Part shown: piece by piece, positions 15,354-59,087 of the stretch | Layout: each line of letters begins with the position of its first letter | How positions within the stretch are numbered: position 1 is the first letter of the stretch | Virus record (IMG/VR): IMGVR_UViG_3300027857_000017 | Direction: 5' to 3' (one strand) | DNA: 64,000 bases | From: a virus | The notes under the pieces: generated by a model | What the model was told of the DNA's origin: nothing | Database searches by the model: none | The model's input: the letters and a program-made list of their open reading frames with translations, nothing else | Program-made: the position numbers and the translations under genes

Positions 15354-15765
15354 TTTTGCAAGCCAGGTCTACGGACCTGAGAGAGCTGCTAAGGTTGAAG
15401 TTGAGACCTATGGCGAGTACAACGATGAGGGCGGGACAAACTACAGTGTCAGCGCCGTAACTGCTTACGATGCTAATGGAGAGGGAATAGAATTTGATCT
15501 GACACTACCGTTCTGGACTCAATCCTATTTTGCAGAGACCTTTCAAGGGAAAACGGATGTTGAAGAGGCACTGGAGGCAGCACTTGATGCACTGAAAGAG
15601 TATTATCCTTACAAACCAGAGGGAAAGGCGCTTCTGGAACAGCAGAGATGGGTCCAATGGGAGGATCTACCCGTAGATGAGCATAACGGTGGTGACAAGA
15701 CCTATGATCTCACCATGCAGCCCTCTATCAGTTTCCCTGTGGTCTTTGCTGGGGTTGCTAGTTGA
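15262..15765 (+). CDS. hypothetical protein
   Basis: strong Shine-Dalgarno GAGGAGGA 6 nt before ATG 15262 (internal start of track ORF 15193-15765). Confidence 0.45.
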   Translation: MTTMQTPLTRQQLTQLTQEYQTLEEWTTIRDFASQVYGPERAAKVEVETYGEYNDEGGTNYSVSAVTAYDANGEGIEFDLTLPFWTQSYFAETFQGKTDVEEALEAALDALKEYYPYKPEGKALLEQQRWVQWEDLPVDEHNGGDKTYDLTMQPSISFPVVFAGVAS

Positions 15766-15790
15766 CAGGACTCCCTGTCCCATGTATCAT
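15762..15790 (+). promoter_or_regulatory. strong sigma70-like promoter for the Y RNA candidate
   Basis: TTGACA (15762-15767), 17-nt spacer, TATCAT (15785-15790). Confidence 0.6.
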
Positions 15791-16073
15791 GGCGACGAAG
15801 CACAGATTGAGTAGTAACTTGAGTCTTAATCATAATTTCAGATTCTTGCTTCAGACTCAGTATGCTTCGTTGCCAAACATGCGGAGAGCAGGCATTTTTC
15901 GCTACTGGTCGCGGGTTCGATCCCCGCTCGCGCATTTCGCTGCGCGATAACTCAGTGGCTAGAGTGGGTAGCTGTAACCGAGATGCATCCAAACCCGCGT
16001 GAATGGATGAGAACGAAACTCTTTTGCTAAGAGAAAAGACAAGCCAGGATAGGGCATTTCCTGGCTTGTCGCC
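15791..16073 (+). ncRNA. Y RNA candidate (YrlA-like) with a circularly permuted tRNA-like domain
   Basis: Element order is T-arm GCGGG-TTCGATC-CCCGC (15911-15927), 3' acceptor strand TCGCGCA, a 6-nt loop, complementary 5' acceptor strand TGCGCGA (15941-15947), U8/A9, then a canonical D-arm ACTC-AGTGGCTA-GAGT (15950-15965). The flanking GCTAC (15901) and GTAGC (15968) pair where the anticodon stem would be. The 5' end GGCGAC pairs with GTCGCC at 16068-16073. It lies convergent to and abutting rsr. Confidence 0.5.
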
Positions 16074-16093
16074 TTATTGAGTGACTATTTCAA

Positions 16094-16177
16094 GGGTGAG
16101 TATCCAAGTGGACAAAGGAAACTGTCTGTAAAACAGCGGGCATCATGCCTTCAGAGGTTCGAATCCTCTCTCACCCA
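16094..16177 (+). tRNA. tRNA-Tyr (anticodon GUA), type II with long variable arm
   Basis: Acceptor GGGTGAG/CTCACCC, TA at positions 8-9, D-arm TCC-AAGTGGACAAA-GGA, anticodon loop CTGTAAA with U33-GUA-A37, variable hairpin GGCAT-C-ATGCC, T-arm AGAGG-TTCGAAT-CCTCT, discriminator A. D-arm and anticodon arm resemble bacterial tRNA-Tyr. Confidence 0.6.
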
Positions 16178-16185
16178 CCCTCTCT

Positions 16186-17805
16186 CTAGAATTCGCCTTT
16201 AATGAAGGAATTCATAAGCAAAGGAGTGACGGTATCTAGTCCTACACAATCCATCGCCCTGCGGTCGTCTGGCGCATTGTTCGTCACATGAGTGGCGGTC
16301 ATCTGCACATTGATGATCTTGGCATTTGGGTTGACCTGAGCACGATACATTTCCAGTAATTGTGCAGGGTGTCCACCGCGCCCGGACCACGTTTCACTAT
16401 CTGTCAGGATCACAAAGGCGTCCACAGGCATTTTGTCGTACAACGCATACCTCATCGGCAGTGACAAATCAGTCCCACCTCCGCCAATTCCCTTAAGCGT
16501 TCTCACTACATCATCCAACCTCTGTGAAGGAGAGATGGTCAACTTCTGCACACCCGTATCTATGCCAATGAGATGGTAGTTCGGCTCAGTTCTCGCCATC
16601 ACCAACGCCATAGCGCCAGCAGCCGTATGCACATCCATACCAGGGATGCCATTGACCTGCCCATAGTGCATCGATCCACTGGTGTCCACTGCCAGCAAGA
16701 TGTGCTTTCCAGTGGGTTCTACTGCTTCAAATGACAGATAGAAGGCATCATTGAGTGCATCGATAATTTCACGTACTGGCTCCCAGGTATGATTCCCTCG
16801 CACGCCTTTCCCGCTGGCATACGTGGTCAATGCCGCAAGGATCTTAATTGGGTGAAGCTTCGCATTGTGAATCCTTTCGCGGTCCCGAAGACGCGACGTA
16901 ATCACTTTTGTCATCTCACCCATTGGCTTGATCACACCCTCCCTGGTCATCGTTGCCAGATTGCGCGTCATTGCCTCAAGCGGCATATCCTCTAGCAATG
17001 CCTCCCAGACCCGTATAGAATGCAAATGCTGAGTAGGAACTGCTTCGCGTGGTAGTTTGTAGGTCTTGATCAGAGAAGCCACTTCACGATCATCCTGAGC
17101 ACGTTTGGCTCGCTCGTATGCCCAGATGATCTTGAGCGCATCATCAGGATGCGGCTCATCACCAACAGACTCCCACCCGCCTTTGACAATCCAGTGATAG
17201 AGGGTGTTATACGTTGAAGTCTCTGCCTTTGGATGTGCCAGGCGGAGCAGATCGCGCTGACTGTAGCCATCCCTCTGCTGATACTTGAGCACCTGATACG
17301 CCAGATTGTGTTCTTTCCTATCATTGAACCAGGAGGCAACGGCACGACGATAGGCACGTCCCCAGCCTCTAAACTGTTTGGCATAGGCGACGAAGTGCAG
17401 GAGGTGCGTGCCGGTCCTGGCTACTTGTGGCAACACAGAGAGCGCATACTGGCGAATCTTCTCATCATCGGCAGCAGCACACCTTGCCAGCGCAAACAGA
17501 GCAGGGTCGTTGGAAGCAGCTCGTCCAGCCTTTGACACTTCTACGATGGAGGTCACTATATCACGCCCATTGCCCTCTTTAAGCATACGCTCCACGGTCT
17601 CTAAATTTTGTTTGGTCAATTCACGCTGCCCGACATAGAGTGTGTTGCTATTGCTCCCCAATATTAAGAACCTTAAGAGGCGCGTAGGATCATCAACAGA
17701 CCAACTAAACCCACCAGCGTTATTGAGAACTTGACTTGACCCAGGAATAGGCTCGGTTTGTGGCGTCTGCTGTGAAAAACGTCCAAAGTTGAGATAGTTC
17801 TTCAT
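16186..17805 (-). CDS. rsr: Ro60 ortholog Rsr (TROVE domain + von Willebrand A domain)
   Basis: About 540 aa; TROVE-like N-terminal region and C-terminal vWA with the MIDAS motif LLAVDTSGSM. Start taken at MKNYLNF (17805), which follows a GGAGGAAGGGGG Shine-Dalgarno. The track ORF extends to 17826. Confidence 0.8.
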   Translation of the reverse strand: MKNYLNFGRFSQQTPQTEPIPGSSQVLNNAGGFSWSVDDPTRLLRFLILGSNSNTLYVGQRELTKQNLETVERMLKEGNGRDIVTSIVEVSKAGRAASNDPALFALARCAAADDEKIRQYALSVLPQVARTGTHLLHFVAYAKQFRGWGRAYRRAVASWFNDRKEHNLAYQVLKYQQRDGYSQRDLLRLAHPKAETSTYNTLYHWIVKGGWESVGDEPHPDDALKIIWAYERAKRAQDDREVASLIKTYKLPREAVPTQHLHSIRVWEALLEDMPLEAMTRNLATMTREGVIKPMGEMTKVITSRLRDRERIHNAKLHPIKILAALTTYASGKGVRGNHTWEPVREIIDALNDAFYLSFEAVEPTGKHILLAVDTSGSMHYGQVNGIPGMDVHTAAGAMALVMARTEPNYHLIGIDTGVQKLTISPSQRLDDVVRTLKGIGGGGTDLSLPMRYALYDKMPVDAFVILTDSETWSGRGGHPAQLLEMYRAQVNPNAKIINVQMTATHVTNNAPDDRRAMDCVGLDTVTPLLMNSFIKGEF

Positions 17806-18036
17806 CGTCCCCCTTCCTCCACTCATAAAATGACACGGGCGAGAAAACGCTCATAGGTACCAAAAGCAGCGATAACCTACGAACTGCGGCCCGTGTCGAT
17901 AAGTCCTGTACTGAGCAAGTGAACTGGGGCGGGAATGTCAGCGATCCCAAAAGAAGCTAATAACCCGCCCATCTCGGCTCAGTACCATGATTGCGTGTCC
18001 TGGATAAAAAGCGATACTGGGTATCTTAAAGTCAAT

Positions 18037-18125
18037 CGCTTTCGACCACTCAGCCACAACAACCTTACGGTCATTGGTGGGATTCGAACCCACGGACATT
18101 TGATAATAACCCAAAATCCGCGACC
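18037..18125 (-). ncRNA. permuted tRNA-like module 2 (Y RNA candidate), minus strand
   Basis: On the minus strand: T-arm GTGGG-TTCGAAT-CCCAC (plus 18077-18093), acceptor-like stem CAATGACC/GGTTGTTG closed by a GUAA tetraloop (18057-18076), D-like hairpin with AGTGG (18037-18056), flanked by complementary CTGGGT/ACCCAG stem strands. Confidence 0.4.
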
Positions 18126-18311
18126 CAGGACAATTGATAAGTCCATGTGTCAGGCAAAAGGCGATAGAGGAAAGCCTGAGAGAACCCAGGTGCCCTACCA
18201 CTAGGCAAAGTCCCCAGCGGAGACTGAAAGAATCGAACTTTCGAGAACCTCCACCAAACGGCCCGACACCATAAGTGCGTGAGATAGACAAAAGGCGACA
18301 TCGGGGTAGGC

Positions 18312-18405
18312 GCTTATGCCACAAGCTCGACAGGTTTCCCTGCGTCGGGATTCGAACCCGCACTCCCTCTTCCAAAAGAGAACCAATGCCAAACGGCCCA
18401 TCTCG
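18312..18405 (-). ncRNA. permuted tRNA-like module 3 (Y RNA candidate), minus strand
   Basis: On the minus strand: T-arm GCGGG-TTCGAAT-CCCGA (plus 18345-18361), acceptor-like stem GCAGG/CCTGT closed by a GAAA tetraloop (18330-18343), D-like hairpin GCTT-GTGGCAT-AAGC (18312-18326). Sits directly downstream of the strong minus-strand promoter. Confidence 0.4.
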
Positions 18406-18411
18406 CTGTTT

Positions 18412-18439
18412 AGTATACTCGCTGTTTGCGATTTGTCAA
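18412..18439 (-). promoter_or_regulatory. strong sigma70-like promoter on the minus strand
   Basis: TTGACA (plus 18434-18439), 16-nt spacer, TATACT (plus 18412-18417); fires toward module 3, module 2 and rsr. Confidence 0.55.
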
Positions 18440-18623
18440 GAAGTTCCAACGAACACGCCTCATCCTCTGCCACATGGTCCAGCCAGATCCGATCAGCACG
18501 ACCAGGGTTGTCAGCGCGTAGCAACCACTAGCAACTTCAAATGCAATCAAGTTCAATTCAATCCCTTTCAACGTATCCCTTGTCCTAGCTAAGTAATACA
18601 CAAAAGGGACCATCATCTCAAAA

Positions 18624-19763
18624 TTAGGAATATTTGGTGATGGAAAACTGTAGTTTCCCCGCCTCGATGCTGAGTGATAGATTTCGCATTTCATGCTGCC
18701 AAATGATCTTCACGATATAGCCCTTACTCTCAATATAAGCAATACGTTTGGCATCATGTTCACGAATAGATTCGGCTGATCTGATACCCTGACCTCTTGA
18801 CTTCCTGATGCCTTGGGTGTGACCACATTGCAAACAGGCATGCCACCAGCAGCCATAAATCTCCACAACTTGGTTACTTTTGATAAGGTAGAAGTCTACG
18901 AGGCAAGACCTAATACGAAATTGCTTTTTGTAGTCAATGTTTTCTTGCCATCCTAATGCATTTAGTTTCTTTTCGAACGCGATCTCCGGTTTTGTGTCCT
19001 TGAGAACACGCTTTTTGCTATTTAGTGCTGCCTCAATCGATGGCATGAGCATATCTGTTCTTTCTTCCTTAGTGAACTGCTCCCAATAGGTTGATTTTGC
19101 TTTTGAGTGCCTCTTTTTTGCCTCATCAGTGTGTTTCTTCCCCAGAGCTGCGGTAGAACTCTTCTGCCTCCTTATTTCAGACTGCTTCTTTCCCTTCTTT
19201 GCTGCCGATATTTTTCTTCGCGTCTCTTCAGAGACTGGCGTATCTTTTTTGGATTCAAACCTTTTCTGAATGTGTTCGGGTGACTGCTTCCGTCCTTTCA
19301 TCGCACCAATCTTACCGTACATTGGGTTGCCTTCGCCTTTGACTCTCTGCGACATTTTTGCCTTGTTCTCTGGTGACATGTTCCATTCATGAACCTCCCA
19401 ATCAATATCTTGCAAGAAAAGCGGATTCATGCCCTGCTCTTCCCTAATTGAATTCAATGTAGCAAGAACATAGGAAGCGGGTTTTATGCGAATAGATTTG
19501 TTTTGTTCATAATAGCAAACTGTGGATACTGGTAGGGAGGTTCGTTTTGCAAACTCCTTTTGCGTAAGCCCTAATTGCATCCTCGCTTCACGCAAAGTTA
19601 ATTTGACAGGTTCTTTGTGGTCAGTTTGATGTTCCAAAAAGGGATCATCGAAGGGTAACGATTGTTGTCTATAGTTCTGCGGTGATAAACTATCCATCGT
19701 GTATAGCCTCCTCCATAGGTTATGCACACGTCTTAGAGGTGTTACAGCACCTCTAAGACGCAA
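18624..19763 (-). CDS. XRE-family HTH + NUMOD3 repeats + Vsr/DUF559-like endonuclease domain protein
   Basis: N-terminal HTH LTQKEFAKRTSLPVSTVCYYEQNK; repeated NUMOD3-like basic motifs (GEGNPMYGK, KISAAKKGK, GKKHTDEAKKRHS); C-terminal VDFYLI..EIYGCWWHAC...GYIVKIIWQHEM resembling the very-short-patch-repair endonuclease fold. Confidence 0.55.
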   Translation of the reverse strand: MRLRGAVTPLRRVHNLWRRLYTMDSLSPQNYRQQSLPFDDPFLEHQTDHKEPVKLTLREARMQLGLTQKEFAKRTSLPVSTVCYYEQNKSIRIKPASYVLATLNSIREEQGMNPLFLQDIDWEVHEWNMSPENKAKMSQRVKGEGNPMYGKIGAMKGRKQSPEHIQKRFESKKDTPVSEETRRKISAAKKGKKQSEIRRQKSSTAALGKKHTDEAKKRHSKAKSTYWEQFTKEERTDMLMPSIEAALNSKKRVLKDTKPEIAFEKKLNALGWQENIDYKKQFRIRSCLVDFYLIKSNQVVEIYGCWWHACLQCGHTQGIRKSRGQGIRSAESIREHDAKRIAYIESKGYIVKIIWQHEMRNLSLSIEAGKLQFSITKYS

Positions 19764-21835: not shown

Positions 21836-22417
21836 ATGCACTATTACATAGACACGGAATTCATCGATGACGGGAAGACGATAGATTTGATCTCCATAGG
21901 GATTGTGTCTGGCGACGGCAGAGAATATTACGCTCAATCGACCGAGTTCACCATTGATAAGGCGTCACCGTGGGTACGAGAACACGTGCTCATGCATTTG
22001 AAATTATGCCCATCCATCAGCACGCCTTCAGTGTACTCTTTGGGAACAGTCTACGGAGCGCAATCACGTCATAAGCAGGGTCAATGTGTTGATCAGTGGC
22101 GTGAACGTATCCACAACTGCCCGTGGCGAACACGGGAACAAATAGCTCATGAGGTGAAGTCGTTCATTGGCGATGATATCCCTGAGTTCCACGCCTGGTG
22201 CGCAGGCTATGACTGGGTTGTCCTCTGCCAGCTTTTCGGCACCATGATGGATCTCCCATCTGGTTGGCCGCACTACATCCGTGATCTGCAGTACGTACTA
22301 GACGAGCGAGGCATCACCGATGAGATGCTCCCACCACAGGAAGAACAATCTCACAACGCCCTAGCTGATGCCCGATACATTCAAAAGATCTGGCAGGTAC
22401 TCGATGGAAAGAGATGA
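21836..22417 (+). CDS. DEDDh 3'-5' exonuclease (DnaQ-like)
   Basis: YIDTEF (Exo I) ... HNALADARY (Exo III with His). Confidence 0.6.
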   Translation: MHYYIDTEFIDDGKTIDLISIGIVSGDGREYYAQSTEFTIDKASPWVREHVLMHLKLCPSISTPSVYSLGTVYGAQSRHKQGQCVDQWRERIHNCPWRTREQIAHEVKSFIGDDIPEFHAWCAGYDWVVLCQLFGTMMDLPSGWPHYIRDLQYVLDERGITDEMLPPQEEQSHNALADARYIQKIWQVLDGKR

Positions 22418-58172: not shown

Positions 58173-59087
58173 TCACTTCCCTGTGGTGAACGGCGCGAGT
58201 ACTGGGTTACTTTGTCCATTGGTGGAGAGATAGTTTGGCAAATGACCATCCCATTTTTGCGCGATGAGGTACTGAATGTACTCAGGTGACTTCGCCAACT
58301 GTGCATTGATGATCGCAATACTCTGTGCATCTCCCTGAGCCTTTGCTACTGCTGCATCTGCTTCATATTGCGCTTGCTGCTTGAGGTAGGCGCTCTTCTG
58401 TGCATCATTTCGAGCATTGAGGACTGCCTGGATCGTGGCATCAGGTTTTCTTTCATTGAGGAAGACCTGTGTGACGAGAATGCCGTTTGGCGTCAGGTCT
58501 CGCTGGAGTGCATTCATAACATCAGCCTTGAACTGGTCCGTCTTAGCTGGTCCTGTCCCATCTCCTAGTAAGTCCTGCCATCCGTAGCGCGTGCAGGCAT
58601 CTAAGACATCGCTTCTTACGGCACCATAGACAAGCGTGGTATTGATATCGTTGTTCAGACTACTCACCAGCGGCACTCCCGGTTTCTTGAGATAGAGTAT
58701 TTCGGGATGTTCGCTATTGACCTGCCAATTGACTGTTAACCCAATGTTGAGGATACCTCCACCTGACATCTGGCAGGCAATGGTGGAGTCGCCTTGTAGT
58801 TCGCCTTCCTCGCTCTTGGATGAAAGGACGAGCTGCTGCTGGGCGATGGGATACTCCACAATTTGCTCACCTGAGAAGGGTGGAATGAAGGCATATTGTC
58901 CCGTAGCGAGTGTGTGGATGACGGGTTTCCCTGCACTTGCACCTGCAGCGAAGTCAATGAGGATACCTGCGTTTCCTGGGTCTATGCGCTTATAGCTGGT
59001 GGCGATGGTGATAACGACGATGATGGCAACGATGCCAATAATGGCGCTAATCGTACAGCCTTTGGGATGCTCTTCGATAAAATCCAT
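58173..59087 (-). CDS. SPFH/band-7 (stomatin/HflC-like) domain protein
   Basis: N-terminal transmembrane helix, then an SPFH core and a coiled-coil AQKSAYLKQQAQYEADAAVAKAQGDAQ. Confidence 0.7.
   Translation of the reverse strand: MDFIEEHPKGCTISAIIGIVAIIVVITIATSYKRIDPGNAGILIDFAAGASAGKPVIHTLATGQYAFIPPFSGEQIVEYPIAQQQLVLSSKSEEGELQGDSTIACQMSGGGILNIGLTVNWQVNSEHPEILYLKKPGVPLVSSLNNDINTTLVYGAVRSDVLDACTRYGWQDLLGDGTGPAKTDQFKADVMNALQRDLTPNGILVTQVFLNERKPDATIQAVLNARNDAQKSAYLKQQAQYEADAAVAKAQGDAQSIAIINAQLAKSPEYIQYLIAQKWDGHLPNYLSTNGQSNPVLAPFTTGK

What the first reader, a model, noticed from the sequence alone, without database searches (positions are those of the whole stretch)
18030..18440. Two more permuted tRNA-like modules on the minus strand upstream of rsr, behind a consensus promoter
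On the rsr (minus) strand there are two further T-arm / closed acceptor stem / D-like hairpin units about 290 nt apart. Module 2 (plus 18037-18093) has a GUAA tetraloop closing its acceptor-like stem. Module 3 (plus 18312-18361) has a GAAA tetraloop. GNRA loops closing the acceptor stem are exactly what a stable permuted tRNA mimic needs. A TTGACA-16-TATACT promoter at 18439-18412 fires into module 3, then module 2, then rsr. Neither module can be completed into a canonical tRNA because the 5' acceptor partners are missing. With the plus-strand copy, Rsr is flanked by three Y RNA candidates on both strands. That array is unusual: known loci carry 1-2 Y RNAs on one strand. Alternative reading: these are 3' tRNA fragments left as att-site remnants of nested integrations.
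Basis: partly seen in the sequence, partly recalled or inferred. Interest (0 to 1): 0.8.

Follow-up and report, generated by a model that had tools for sequence, protein, structure and literature searches.

The report
Five tandem Y RNAs before rsr
The two tRNA-like hairpin units are real, but they belong to a row of five small-RNA genes (Y RNAs) directly in front of the gene for their partner protein Rsr/Ro60, which is a known bacterial RNA-protein system seen here as a long, well-conserved array.

Summary
The T-arms, the GUAA/GAAA-closed acceptor-like hairpins, the D-like hairpins and the TTGACA-16-TATACT promoter are all present. It is incomplete, though. The 574-nt gap between promoter and rsr (minus strand 18404-17832) holds five consecutive modules, each closed by its own stem. 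Two are short hairpins (M4, M5) that resemble animal Y/sbRNAs. Linkers are 9-13 nt, and M5 ends 26 nt before the rsr start codon.

Covariance models built from these modules find about 185 further copies in about 75 rsr loci from other genomes. Nearly all lie upstream of rsr on its strand, in arrays of 1-6. Base pairs covary strongly, including the tRNA Levitt pair.

This excludes att-site remnants and chance. The best reading is a Y RNA array (YrlA-like plus YrlB/Yrn2-like) probably co-transcribed with rsr, as in Deinococcus and Salmonella. It is a new member of a known kind. Rfam's YrlA model does not detect it. The claim that known loci carry only 1-2 Y RNAs is not supported. Expression and Rsr binding are untested.

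The parts
18412..18439 (-). Sigma-70-type promoter TTGACA-16-TATACT. The -10 hexamer ends 7 nt before the first paired base of module 1.
   Evidence: 11 of 12 matches. In 13 of 17 related arrays a TANNNT hexamer ends 4-9 nt before the first module.
18281..18404 (-). Module M1, a YrlA-like Y RNA candidate. Closing stem GAGAUGGGC/GUCUAUCUC. V-like hairpin 18380-18367. T-arm 18361-18345. GAAA-closed acceptor-like hairpin about 18346-18329. D-like hairpin 18327-18311. The tRNA-like core is degenerate in this copy.
   Evidence: R2 93.7 bits, E = 4e-17. Coordinates. The tRNA-like fold costs 8 kcal/mol over the MFE. Counterparts L001 2386-2515 and L002 2773-2903 have perfect T/AS/D arms.
18147..18270 (-). 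T-arm GAAAG-UUCGAUU-CUUUC 18242-18226. 7-bp acceptor-like hairpin AGUCUCC-GCU-GGGGACU 18225-18209. D-arm 18207-18191. Extra hairpin 18190-18175.
   Evidence: R2 83.1 bits, E = 7.5e-15. All consensus pairs are canonical. The tRNA-like fold is -52.7 against an MFE of -54.1 kcal/mol. Coordinates.
17996..18132 (-). Module M3, a YrlA-like Y RNA candidate with a class-II-tRNA-like D-arm. V region 18119-18094. T-arm 18093-18077. 8-bp acceptor-like hairpin with GUAA loop 18076-18057. D hairpin 18054-18038.
   Evidence: R2 96.2 bits, E = 1.3e-17. The MFE itself gives the T-arm and the acceptor hairpin. Coordinates.
17908..17985 (-). Module M4, a short Y RNA candidate (YrlB/Yrn2-like hairpin). 5' GUACUGAGCCGAGAUGGGCGGGUUAUU ... 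CCCGCCCCAGUUCACUUGCUCAGUAC 3'.
   Evidence: R1 59 bits, E = 5e-13. Covariation of the family.
17832..17897 (-). Module M5, a short Y RNA candidate with a GGUUAUC motif and a pyrimidine-rich loop. It ends 26 nt before the rsr start codon.
   Evidence: R1 71.8 bits, E = 1.4e-16. Rfam RF01656 (nematode sbRNA, a Y RNA homologue) 34.1 bits, E = 3e-5, just under the gathering score of 38. The counterpart L091 2410-2475 passes at 40.6 bits.
17803..17820 (-). Shine-Dalgarno GGAGG and the ATG of rsr. No terminator separates M5 from rsr.
   Evidence: Sequence. The terminator scan finds nothing between 17832 and 17805.
16186..17805 (-). rsr, encoding the Ro60 orthologue (539 aa).
   Evidence: Pfam TROVE 5e-38 and vWA_Ro60 3e-42. 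72% identical to the Ktedonobacter sp. SOSP1-52 TROVE protein.

Best explanation
The 18404-17832 minus-strand stretch is a tandem array of five Y RNA genes that share a promoter with rsr.

Anatomy. Each module has a roughly 9-bp closing stem formed by its 5' and 3' ends. This stem carries the conserved strands 5'-G(G/A)G(C/U)CG and (C/U)UUUG(C/U)C-3', the counterpart of the Ro60-binding GGUCCGA/UUGAC helix of animal Y RNAs. M1-M3 carry a circularly permuted tRNA-like effector domain in the order V region, T-arm, loop-closed acceptor stem, D-arm. This is the YrlA architecture. M4-M5 are short hairpins with GGGUUAU(C/U) and a small pyrimidine-rich loop, which is the YrlB/Yrn2 and animal-like architecture.

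Inferred mechanism. Transcription starts at the first base of M1 and runs through all five modules into rsr. The precursor is cut in the 9-13-nt A/U-rich linkers (motif A-Y-U-U/C-A-U). Each released RNA is bound and stabilised by the Rsr ring through its closing stem. The variable domain then recruits a partner: a tRNA-binding enzyme for M1-M3, and an exoribonuclease such as PNPase for M4-M5. In this way the RNAs would gate or retarget Rsr.

Status of each step. Shown here: anatomy, conservation, covariation, and position and strand relative to rsr. Inferred from family knowledge: transcription, processing, Rsr binding and partners.
For: - The MFE fold gives five independent closed domains, z = -4.0.
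- rsr is a genuine TROVE + vWA_Ro60 protein.
- Homologous loci carry the same kinds of module in the same place: L001 five, L002 two, L003 three.
- Models R1 and R2 give hits at E <= 0.01 distributed as 185 upstream on the rsr strand, 8 downstream on the same strand, 3 downstream on the opposite strand, and 0 inside rsr or upstream on the opposite strand. Upstream and downstream sequence searched is about equal, and the median distance to rsr is 264 nt. After removing overlaps with real tRNAs the split is 152 against 3.
- tRNA-like set (30 sequences): 94.9% of cells paired against 67% shuffled and about 40% slid. 22 of 25 pairs show double changes. Score 0.864 against 0.296, with 0 of 500 shuffles reaching it.
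- Short set (31 sequences): 93.4% against 67.6%, score 0.733 against 0.223.
- tRNA tertiary positions are kept: U8 27/30, A14 28/28, G19 30/30. The Levitt pair covaries: G15:C48 18 times, A15:U48 6 times.
- Rfam gives sub-threshold YrlA matches for relatives, 31.8 and 40.7 bits at E = 2e-3 and 5e-6.
- Rfam gives sbRNA matches for the short type. Five relatives pass the gathering score.
- The linker motif occurs in 31 of 46 linkers against 5.1 +/- 2.0 in shuffles.
- A -10 hexamer lies just before the first module in 13 of 17 arrays.
- There is no terminator before rsr.
- Gene callers place no ORF in the region.
- Precedents exist. Y RNAs lie on the rsr strand within 4 kb, D. radiodurans makes a polycistronic Yrn2-tRNA-Yrn1 precursor (PMC4201824), and Salmonella has an rsr-yrlBA-rtcBA operon (PMC7790460).
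Against: - There are no expression, end-mapping or Rsr-binding data.
- Rfam YrlA (gathering score 69) gives no match at all to M1-M3, even at E <= 10. RF00019 (Y_RNA) gives none either.
- The published YrlA 5' motif GNCGAAN0-1G is only half present (GNCG, no AA).
- M1's tRNA-like core is degenerate, and its MFE is a different fold.
- The upper anticodon-like stem could not be tested for covariation on my alignment.
- Covariation counts come partly from alignments fitted to the model.
Confidence: 0.85

Rival explanations
1. The stretch is not cut into separate RNAs. It acts in cis as a long structured 5' leader of the rsr mRNA. Rsr binding to the Y-like stems, above all M5 at 26 nt from the start codon, would feed back on rsr translation or stability. 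Alternatively, the leader scaffolds several Rsr rings on one transcript.
For: The last module always ends 19-36 nt before the rsr start, with no terminator between. The promoter lies before module 1 only. The Thermus phage Ro60 forms higher-order complexes with its Y-like RNAs (PMC12135203).
Against: In the characterised species the Y RNAs are released as separate small RNAs from polycistronic precursors (PMC4201824). The short linkers carry a conserved motif that looks like a processing signal. One related array contains a tRNA-like gene that scores above the Rfam tRNA threshold (48.8 bits) between modules and would need processing out, although ARAGORN could not assign its anticodon (L118 1914-1987). 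This rival is not exclusive of the main explanation.
Confidence: 0.08
2. The T-arm segments are 3' fragments of tRNA genes left at att sites by nested integrations of mobile elements.
For: The window looks like a mobile element: integrase, transposase, DnaB, a DnaC-like loader, ParA and HNH. A tRNA-Tyr gene lies 1.8 kb away.
Against: - An att remnant is a T-arm plus a 3' acceptor strand followed by unrelated DNA. Here the 3' acceptor strand is followed by a loop, its complementary 5' strand and a D-arm, in permuted order.
- These stems covary across 30 homologues.
- The units sit inside conserved closing stems at a fixed place upstream of rsr in many phyla.
- Nothing beyond the T-loop is shared with the only tRNA in the window.
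Confidence: 0.01
3. The units are decayed or split tRNA genes (a pseudogene cluster), or a chance cluster of hairpins.
For: M1's tRNA-like core is imperfect. ARAGORN occasionally calls odd 'tRNAs' inside homologous modules, for example L004 2154-2220 and L093 2129-2198.
Against: There is no anticodon arm in the right place. ARAGORN and Rfam tRNA are negative in the window. Purifying selection on the pairs argues against decay: 95% paired with many compensatory changes. The window modules are more like their positional counterparts in other genomes (0.62-0.77 identity) than like each other (0.34-0.61), so they are old, maintained paralogues.
Confidence: 0.02

Closest known systems
YrlA (Y RNA-like A; Rfam RF02553; Salmonella Typhimurium, Mycobacterium smegmatis; Chen et al. 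2014, PMC4201824; structure in Wang et al. 2018, 10.1101/312249)
   Same: - On the rsr strand, close to rsr.
- Closing stem formed by the 5' and 3' ends.
- Effector domain is a permuted tRNA: V region, T-arm, loop-closed acceptor stem, D-arm.
- U8, A14, G18/G19 and a covarying R15:Y48 Levitt pair are kept.
- A YUAY (UUAU/UUAC) motif lies at the start of the V region.
- Long V regions like class II tRNAs.
   Different: - The Rfam model gives no hit to the three window copies. Relatives score 31.8 and 40.7 bits against a gathering score of 69.
- The 5' motif is G(G/A)G(C/U)CG followed by U/C-rich bases, not GNCGAAN0-1G.
- There are three distinct copies in tandem rather than one.
Deinococcus radiodurans Y RNA cluster (Yrn1, Yrn2 and RNAs a, b, d upstream of rsr; PMC4201824)
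   Same: Several small RNAs are encoded upstream of rsr on its strand. They form a polycistronic precursor, which includes a tRNA in D. radiodurans, as in related locus L118. A T-arm-bearing Y RNA is mixed with a long-hairpin Y RNA that has a pyrimidine-rich loop.
   Different: Here all five units have a clear Ro-type closing stem, regular 9-13-nt linkers with a shared motif, and full T/AS/D cores in M2 and M3 (degenerate in M1). D. radiodurans Yrn1 lacks a full D-arm. Its RNAs a, b and d fold poorly as Y RNAs.
YrlB / Yrn2-type hairpin Y RNAs and animal Y RNAs / nematode sbRNAs (Rfam RF01656; Kowalski and Krude 2015, PMC4726728)
   Same: M4 and M5 share these features: a lower stem with GGNCCG...CUUG(A/C)C, an upper stem ending in GGGUUAUC (GUG...CAY in most relatives), a UUAUC motif, and a small pyrimidine-rich loop. 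The RF01656 alignment matches these blocks directly. Five relatives exceed its gathering score.
   Different: M5 scores 34.1 bits, below the gathering score of 38, and M4 is not matched. The large internal loop of sbRNAs is absent. The genes are bacterial, promoter-driven and operonic rather than Pol III genes. The similarity does not show common descent.
Thermus phage phiLo Yrl1/Yrl2 upstream of phage Ro60 (PMC12135203)
   Same: Y-like RNAs lie in the noncoding region directly upstream of a Ro60 gene on a mobile genome.
   Different: That locus has two RNAs identified through a CGAA motif, with no tRNA-like domain reported. Here there are five, and three are tRNA-like.

Membership tests
YrlA-type Y RNA | Encoded within 4 kb of rsr on the same strand | tested here: met
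   M1-M3 lie 190-600 nt upstream of rsr on the minus strand. The family-wide split is 185 hits upstream on the same strand against 3 on the opposite strand.
YrlA-type Y RNA | T stem-loop, acceptor-like stem-loop and D stem-loop in permuted order, enclosed by a stem | tested here: met
   25 pairs, 94.9% paired, 22 with compensatory changes. M2 and M3 fit fully. M1 has a mismatched T stem and a short acceptor stem.
YrlA-type Y RNA | tRNA tertiary nucleotides and a covarying Levitt pair (15:48) | tested here: met
   U8 27/30, A14 28/28, G18 25/30, G19 30/30. Position 15:48 is G:C 18 times, A:U 6 times and other 4 times. M2 and M3 have G15:C48. M1 lacks a normal D loop.
YrlA-type Y RNA | 5' motif GNCGAAN0-1G (proposed Rsr contact) | tested here: not met
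   The window modules read GGGCCGUUUGG, GGGCCGUUUGG and GGGUCGCGG. GNCG is present and AA is absent. M4 has GAGCCGAG, which is closer to the vertebrate GGUCCGAG.
YrlA-type Y RNA | Reaches the Rfam RF02553 gathering score (69 bits) | tested here: not met
   There is no RF02553 match to M1-M3 at E <= 10. Relatives score 31.8 and 40.7 bits. None of 20 related loci reaches the gathering score.
YrlA-type Y RNA | Bound by Rsr; modified by TruB/DusA | not testable with these tools
   Needs RIP/EMSA and modification mapping.
Y RNA in general | 5' and 3' ends pair into a long stem that carries the conserved Ro60-binding strands | tested here: met
   The 9-bp closing stem is 96-98% paired, and 7 of 9 pairs show double changes in both sets. 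The conserved G(G/A)G(C/U)CG and UUUUG(C/U)C/CUUGC strands appear. Binding itself is not tested.
Nematode sbRNA family RF01656 (Y RNA homologues) | Reaches the gathering score (38 bits) | tested here: not met
   M5 scores 34.1 bits, E = 3e-5. M4 is not matched. Five related bacterial modules do pass, at 39.8-52.8 bits. This is a resemblance, not membership.
Canonical tRNA gene | Cloverleaf with an anticodon arm and open acceptor ends | tested here: not met
   ARAGORN and Rfam tRNA find only tRNA-Tyr at 16094-16179 on the plus strand.
att-site tRNA remnant | A copy of the 3' part of an intact tRNA gene, ending at the acceptor 3' strand, with flanking repeat homology | tested here: not met
   The order is permuted, with a complementary 5' acceptor strand and a D-arm downstream. 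The stems covary. The location upstream of rsr is conserved. Only T-loop similarity to other sequence is found. The host genome itself was not available.

The most novel reading that the evidence does not exclude
The array is an old operon with fixed slots, carried on mobile DNA, that encodes functionally distinct Y RNAs. Two claims follow. First, its short members (GGNCCG lower stem, GUG/CAY upper stem, UUAUC motif; some relatives pass the nematode sbRNA threshold) are true homologues of animal Y/sbRNAs. That would unite bacterial and animal Y RNAs in one family. Second, its three different tRNA mimics (class-I-like and class-II-like) serve as adapters or decoys for tRNA-targeting enzymes. 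This would fit the frequent placement of rsr next to large tRNA gene arrays in other phyla.
Probability: 0.2. Interest if true: 0.65.

Novelty: new member of a known kind. Interest (0 to 1): 0.4.

Why it matters
- Standard annotation (Rfam YrlA, Y_RNA) misses a whole clade of Rsr-associated RNAs in Chloroflexota and neighbouring phyla.
- Multi-gene Y RNA arrays of up to 5-6, with regular linkers and a shared linker motif, are common in that clade.
[quoted passage not shown] An operon with three distinct, conserved tRNA mimics beside two animal-like Y RNAs gives a natural comparison set for finding partners.
- Cultured relatives exist (Ktedonobacter sp. SOSP1-52 has a two-module version), so the locus is experimentally tractable.
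- The close match of the short modules to the sbRNA model also bears on whether bacterial and animal Y RNAs share ancestry.

Tried and rejected
- Searching genome and viral collections with the single Rsr protein found nothing. An alignment of Rsr homologues was needed.
- The phage record collection has no similar DNA.
- Rfam at permissive thresholds gives no YrlA or Y_RNA hit for M1-M3.
- The supplementary tables of Chen et al. 2014 and two reviews (PMC10870794, PMC6542706) are not held. The largest Y RNA number per locus already reported could therefore not be checked.
- A fixed-spacing motif pattern for the closing stem was ill-posed and found nothing.
- Covariation of the upper (anticodon-like) stem could not be evaluated, because the model alignment is not structure-aware there.
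- Some R2 hits in distant loci turned out to be pairs of adjacent real tRNAs, and I removed them.
- The plus-strand unit has no conserved counterpart in 163 loci.
- I considered and rejected att remnants, tRNA pseudogenes, coding ORFs (no genes called) and an internal terminator. The one terminator-like hit, at 18190-18175, is a hairpin inside M2, and hit counts equal chance.
Full report
**Observation**

- A T-arm GUGGG-UUCGAAU-CCCAC (18093-18077) is followed by CAAUGACC-GUAA-GGUUGUUG (18076-18057) and a D-like hairpin (18054-18038).
- About 270-290 nt upstream, a T-arm GCGGG-UUCGAAU-CCCGA (18361-18345) is followed by a GAAA-closed hairpin and a D-like hairpin (18327-18311).
- The promoter TTGACA-16-TATACT at 18439-18412 matches 11 of 12 positions.
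- ARAGORN and Rfam tRNA find no tRNA here. The only tRNA in the window is tRNA-Tyr at 16094-16179 on the plus strand.
- The ORF is a true Ro60 orthologue: Pfam TROVE 5e-38 and vWA_Ro60 3e-42.

Folding 18412-17826 gives five independent domains, each closed by its own stem (z = -4.0).

- M1 is 18404-18281, M2 is 18270-18147, M3 is 18132-17996, M4 is 17985-17908 and M5 is 17897-17832.
- They are separated by 9-13-nt linkers. M5 ends 26 nt before the rsr ATG, with a GGAGG Shine-Dalgarno between and no terminator.
- M2 is a third tRNA-like unit: T-arm GAAAG-UUCGAUU-CUUUC, a 7-bp acceptor-like hairpin and a normal D-arm. Its tRNA-like fold is within 1.4 kcal/mol of the MFE.
- M1's tRNA-like core is degenerate: a G.A mismatch in the T stem, a roughly 5-bp acceptor stem and an odd D loop. 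Its tRNA-like fold costs 8 kcal/mol over the MFE.
- M4 and M5 are short hairpins without a tRNA-like part.
- All five begin with N5-G(G/A)G(C/U)CG and end with UUUUG(C/U)C-N5 or CUUGCUC-N5. These strands pair into a 9-bp closing stem.

**Related sequences**

- The closest named Rsr homologue is from Ktedonobacter sp. SOSP1-52 at 72% identity, so the window most likely comes from a Ktedonobacteria-like Chloroflexota genome or a mobile element in one. The context shows an integrase, a transposase, DnaB, a DnaC-like loader, ParA and HNH.
- Three homologous loci carry the same kinds of module in the same noncoding gap upstream of rsr: five in L001, two in L002 (the Ktedonobacter strain) and three in L003. 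Gene callers place no ORF in these gaps.
- I built two covariance models: R2 from nine tRNA-like modules and R1 from six short ones. I searched 98 sources totalling 550 kb, obtained through an Rsr alignment.
- At E <= 0.01 the merged hits fall 185 upstream of rsr on its strand, 8 downstream on the same strand, 3 downstream on the opposite strand, and none inside rsr or upstream on the opposite strand. Upstream and downstream sequence searched is about equal, and the median distance to rsr is 264 nt.
- Fifteen hits overlapped ARAGORN tRNA calls, most of them real tRNAs in tandem. Chen et al. also reported this artefact. After removing them the split is 152 against 3.
- In the 64-kb window the models find only the five modules, plus a local match to the plus-strand unit.

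**Structure support**

- On 30 tRNA-like modules, 94.9% of cells pair, against 67% after shuffling and 38-47% when partners are slid. 22 of 25 pairs show double changes. The covariation score is 0.864 against 0.296, with 0 of 500 shuffles reaching it.
- The acceptor-like stem is the most variable, with five to six pair types per position.
- On 31 short modules, 93.4% pair against 67.6%, with a score of 0.733 against 0.223.
- Positions that make tRNA tertiary contacts are conserved: U8 27/30, A14 28/28, G19 30/30.
- The Levitt pair covaries: G15:C48 18 times and A15:U48 6 times. Chen et al. 2014 and Wang et al. 2018 use this same signature for YrlA.
- GNRA tetraloops close the acceptor-like stem in 14 of 30 modules by the script's count (about 16 after allowing for a register shift in two copies), and UNCG closes one more.
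- Caveat: these alignments were fitted to the models, which favours the structure. The slide control and the independent MAFFT/RNAalifold results on the seed sets point the same way.

**What it is**

- These features match bacterial Y RNAs as defined by Chen et al. 2014 (PMC4201824). Those RNAs lie next to rsr on the same strand, have a closing stem carrying the Ro60-binding strand, and have a tRNA-like T/AS/D domain with a V arm (YrlA).
[quoted passage not shown] M4 and M5 fit that description.
- Rfam's nematode sbRNA model (RF01656) represents animal Y RNA homologues (PMC4726728). It aligns to M5 at 34.1 bits (E = 3e-5, gathering score 38) over the blocks GG-CCG, GGUUAUC, CC-A and CU-G-CCGU.
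- Five related bacterial modules exceed that gathering score, including L091 2410-2475, the positional counterpart of M5.
- Rfam YrlA gives nothing for M1-M3 even at E <= 10. It gives only 31.8 and 40.7 bits for two relatives, and 32.4 bits for the plus-strand unit in the window.
- The published GNCGAAN0-1G motif is only half present.
- I therefore file M1-M3 as divergent YrlA-like RNAs on architecture, not as members of the Rfam family as currently modelled.

**How it probably works (inferred)**

- A TANNNT hexamer ends 4-9 nt before the first module in 13 of 17 close arrays. This puts the transcription start at the first base of module 1.
- With no terminator before rsr, the array and rsr would form one transcript. 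This resembles the Yrn2-tRNA(Asp)-Yrn1 precursor of D. radiodurans (PMC4201824) and the rsr-yrlBA-rtcBA operon of Salmonella (PMC7790460).
- The short linkers carry a recurrent A-Y-U-(U/C)-A-U motif in 31 of 46 cases, against 5.1 +/- 2.0 in shuffles. This is a candidate processing signal.
- One related array (L118) has a tRNA-like gene between modules that scores above the Rfam tRNA threshold, though ARAGORN assigns it no standard anticodon. If it is a functional tRNA, that array must be processed.
- By analogy, each released RNA binds the outer face of the Rsr ring through its closing stem and brings a partner through its variable domain. For the short type the partner would be PNPase, as in RYPER. 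For the tRNA mimics the partner is an unknown tRNA-binding factor.
- Nothing here tests expression, processing or binding.

**Age of the array**

- The window modules resemble their positional counterparts in other genomes more than they resemble each other. Cross-genome identities are M1-L002 0.73, M3-L003 0.72, M5-L091 0.77 and M1 to M4 against L001 0.62-0.67. Identities within the window are 0.34-0.61.
- The five slots are therefore old paralogues, with losses in some lineages.
- Array sizes are lower bounds, because the models come from this clade. The counts are 1 module in 11 loci, 2 in 21, 3 in 12, 4 in 13, 5 in L001 and 6 in L118. By eye, L091 has a fifth module in an 85-nt 'linker'.
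- The window's five is at the upper end but not exceptional.

**Rivals**

- att-site remnants and tRNA pseudogenes are excluded by the permuted order, the covariation and the fixed location next to rsr.
- A purely cis-acting leader is possible and not exclusive. Precedent and the linker motif make it less likely.

**Verdict**

It belongs to a known kind, bacterial Y RNAs with rsr. The added points of interest are:

- the array length;
- the three distinct tRNA mimics;
- the animal-like short modules;
- the fact that current Rfam models miss M1-M3 and their tRNA-like relatives in this clade.

Noticed in passing
window 15762-16179 (+): Convergent with rsr, a second 11-of-12 promoter (TTGACA-17-TATCAT, 15762-15790) points into three elements. 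The first is a long hairpin (15791-15874). The second is a tRNA-like T/AS/D unit (15889-15992) that scores Rfam YrlA 32.4 bits (gathering score 69) and gives a local R2 hit only. The third is tRNA-Tyr (16094-16179). The hairpin begins GGCGACGAAGCA, which fits the published GNCGAAN0-1G Rsr motif. It starts right after the -10 hexamer, however, so a normal start site would fall inside the stem. No conserved counterpart exists in 163 loci. Opposite-strand placement is atypical: only 3 of 196 family hits are on the opposite strand.
   Followed up: partly
L005, L009, L025, L027, L032, L035, L037, L040, L117, L135 (loci around rsr in Chloroflexia, Abditibacteriaceae, Ardenticatenaceae, Caldilineaceae, Sericytochromatia and others): In 10 of 60 rsr loci scanned, 8-18 tRNA genes lie in tandem on the rsr strand within 2.5 kb of rsr. 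L040, for example, has 18 tRNAs, then Y-like modules, then rsr. This is far above genomic tRNA density. A link between rsr/Y RNAs and tRNA gene arrays did not turn up in my literature searches.
   Followed up: partly
L001 4639-6773: In the closest five-module relative, rsr is followed on the same strand by an RlaP nucleotidyltransferase (PF10127) and a CCA-adding/poly(A) polymerase-like protein with an HD domain. That neighbourhood has an RNA-repair or tRNA-end-repair flavour. The window lacks these genes downstream of rsr.
   Followed up: no
L001, L003, L085, L086, L091, L092: 20-30 nt upstream of the first module: In six related arrays a perfect TTGACA (or TTTACA) sits only 7-8 nt from the -10-like hexamer. 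In the window and four others the spacing is the usual 16-17 nt. The short-spacing arrangement is conserved and unexplained.
   Followed up: no
window 18624-19763 (-) and 21836-22417 (+): Directly upstream of the array lies an ORF combining an HTH, NUMOD3 motifs and a Vsr/DUF559-like endonuclease domain, which looks like a homing endonuclease. A 3'-5' exoribonuclease of the Rv2179c family is encoded 3.4 kb away.
   Followed up: no
window 58173-59087 (-): A Band_7/SPFH-domain protein is encoded here. Band-7 proteins have been linked to a tRNA-like RNA (b7a-tRNA) and RtcB in the literature (10.1101/312249). This one is 40 kb from rsr, and no tRNA-like RNA was seen next to it.
   Followed up: no
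L004 2154-2220, L093 2129-2198, L100 1393-1464, L009 1985-2057: ARAGORN calls short, odd 'tRNAs' inside Y RNA modules of related loci. Genome annotations of these clades may therefore carry spurious tRNA genes that are really Y RNA domains.
   Followed up: partly
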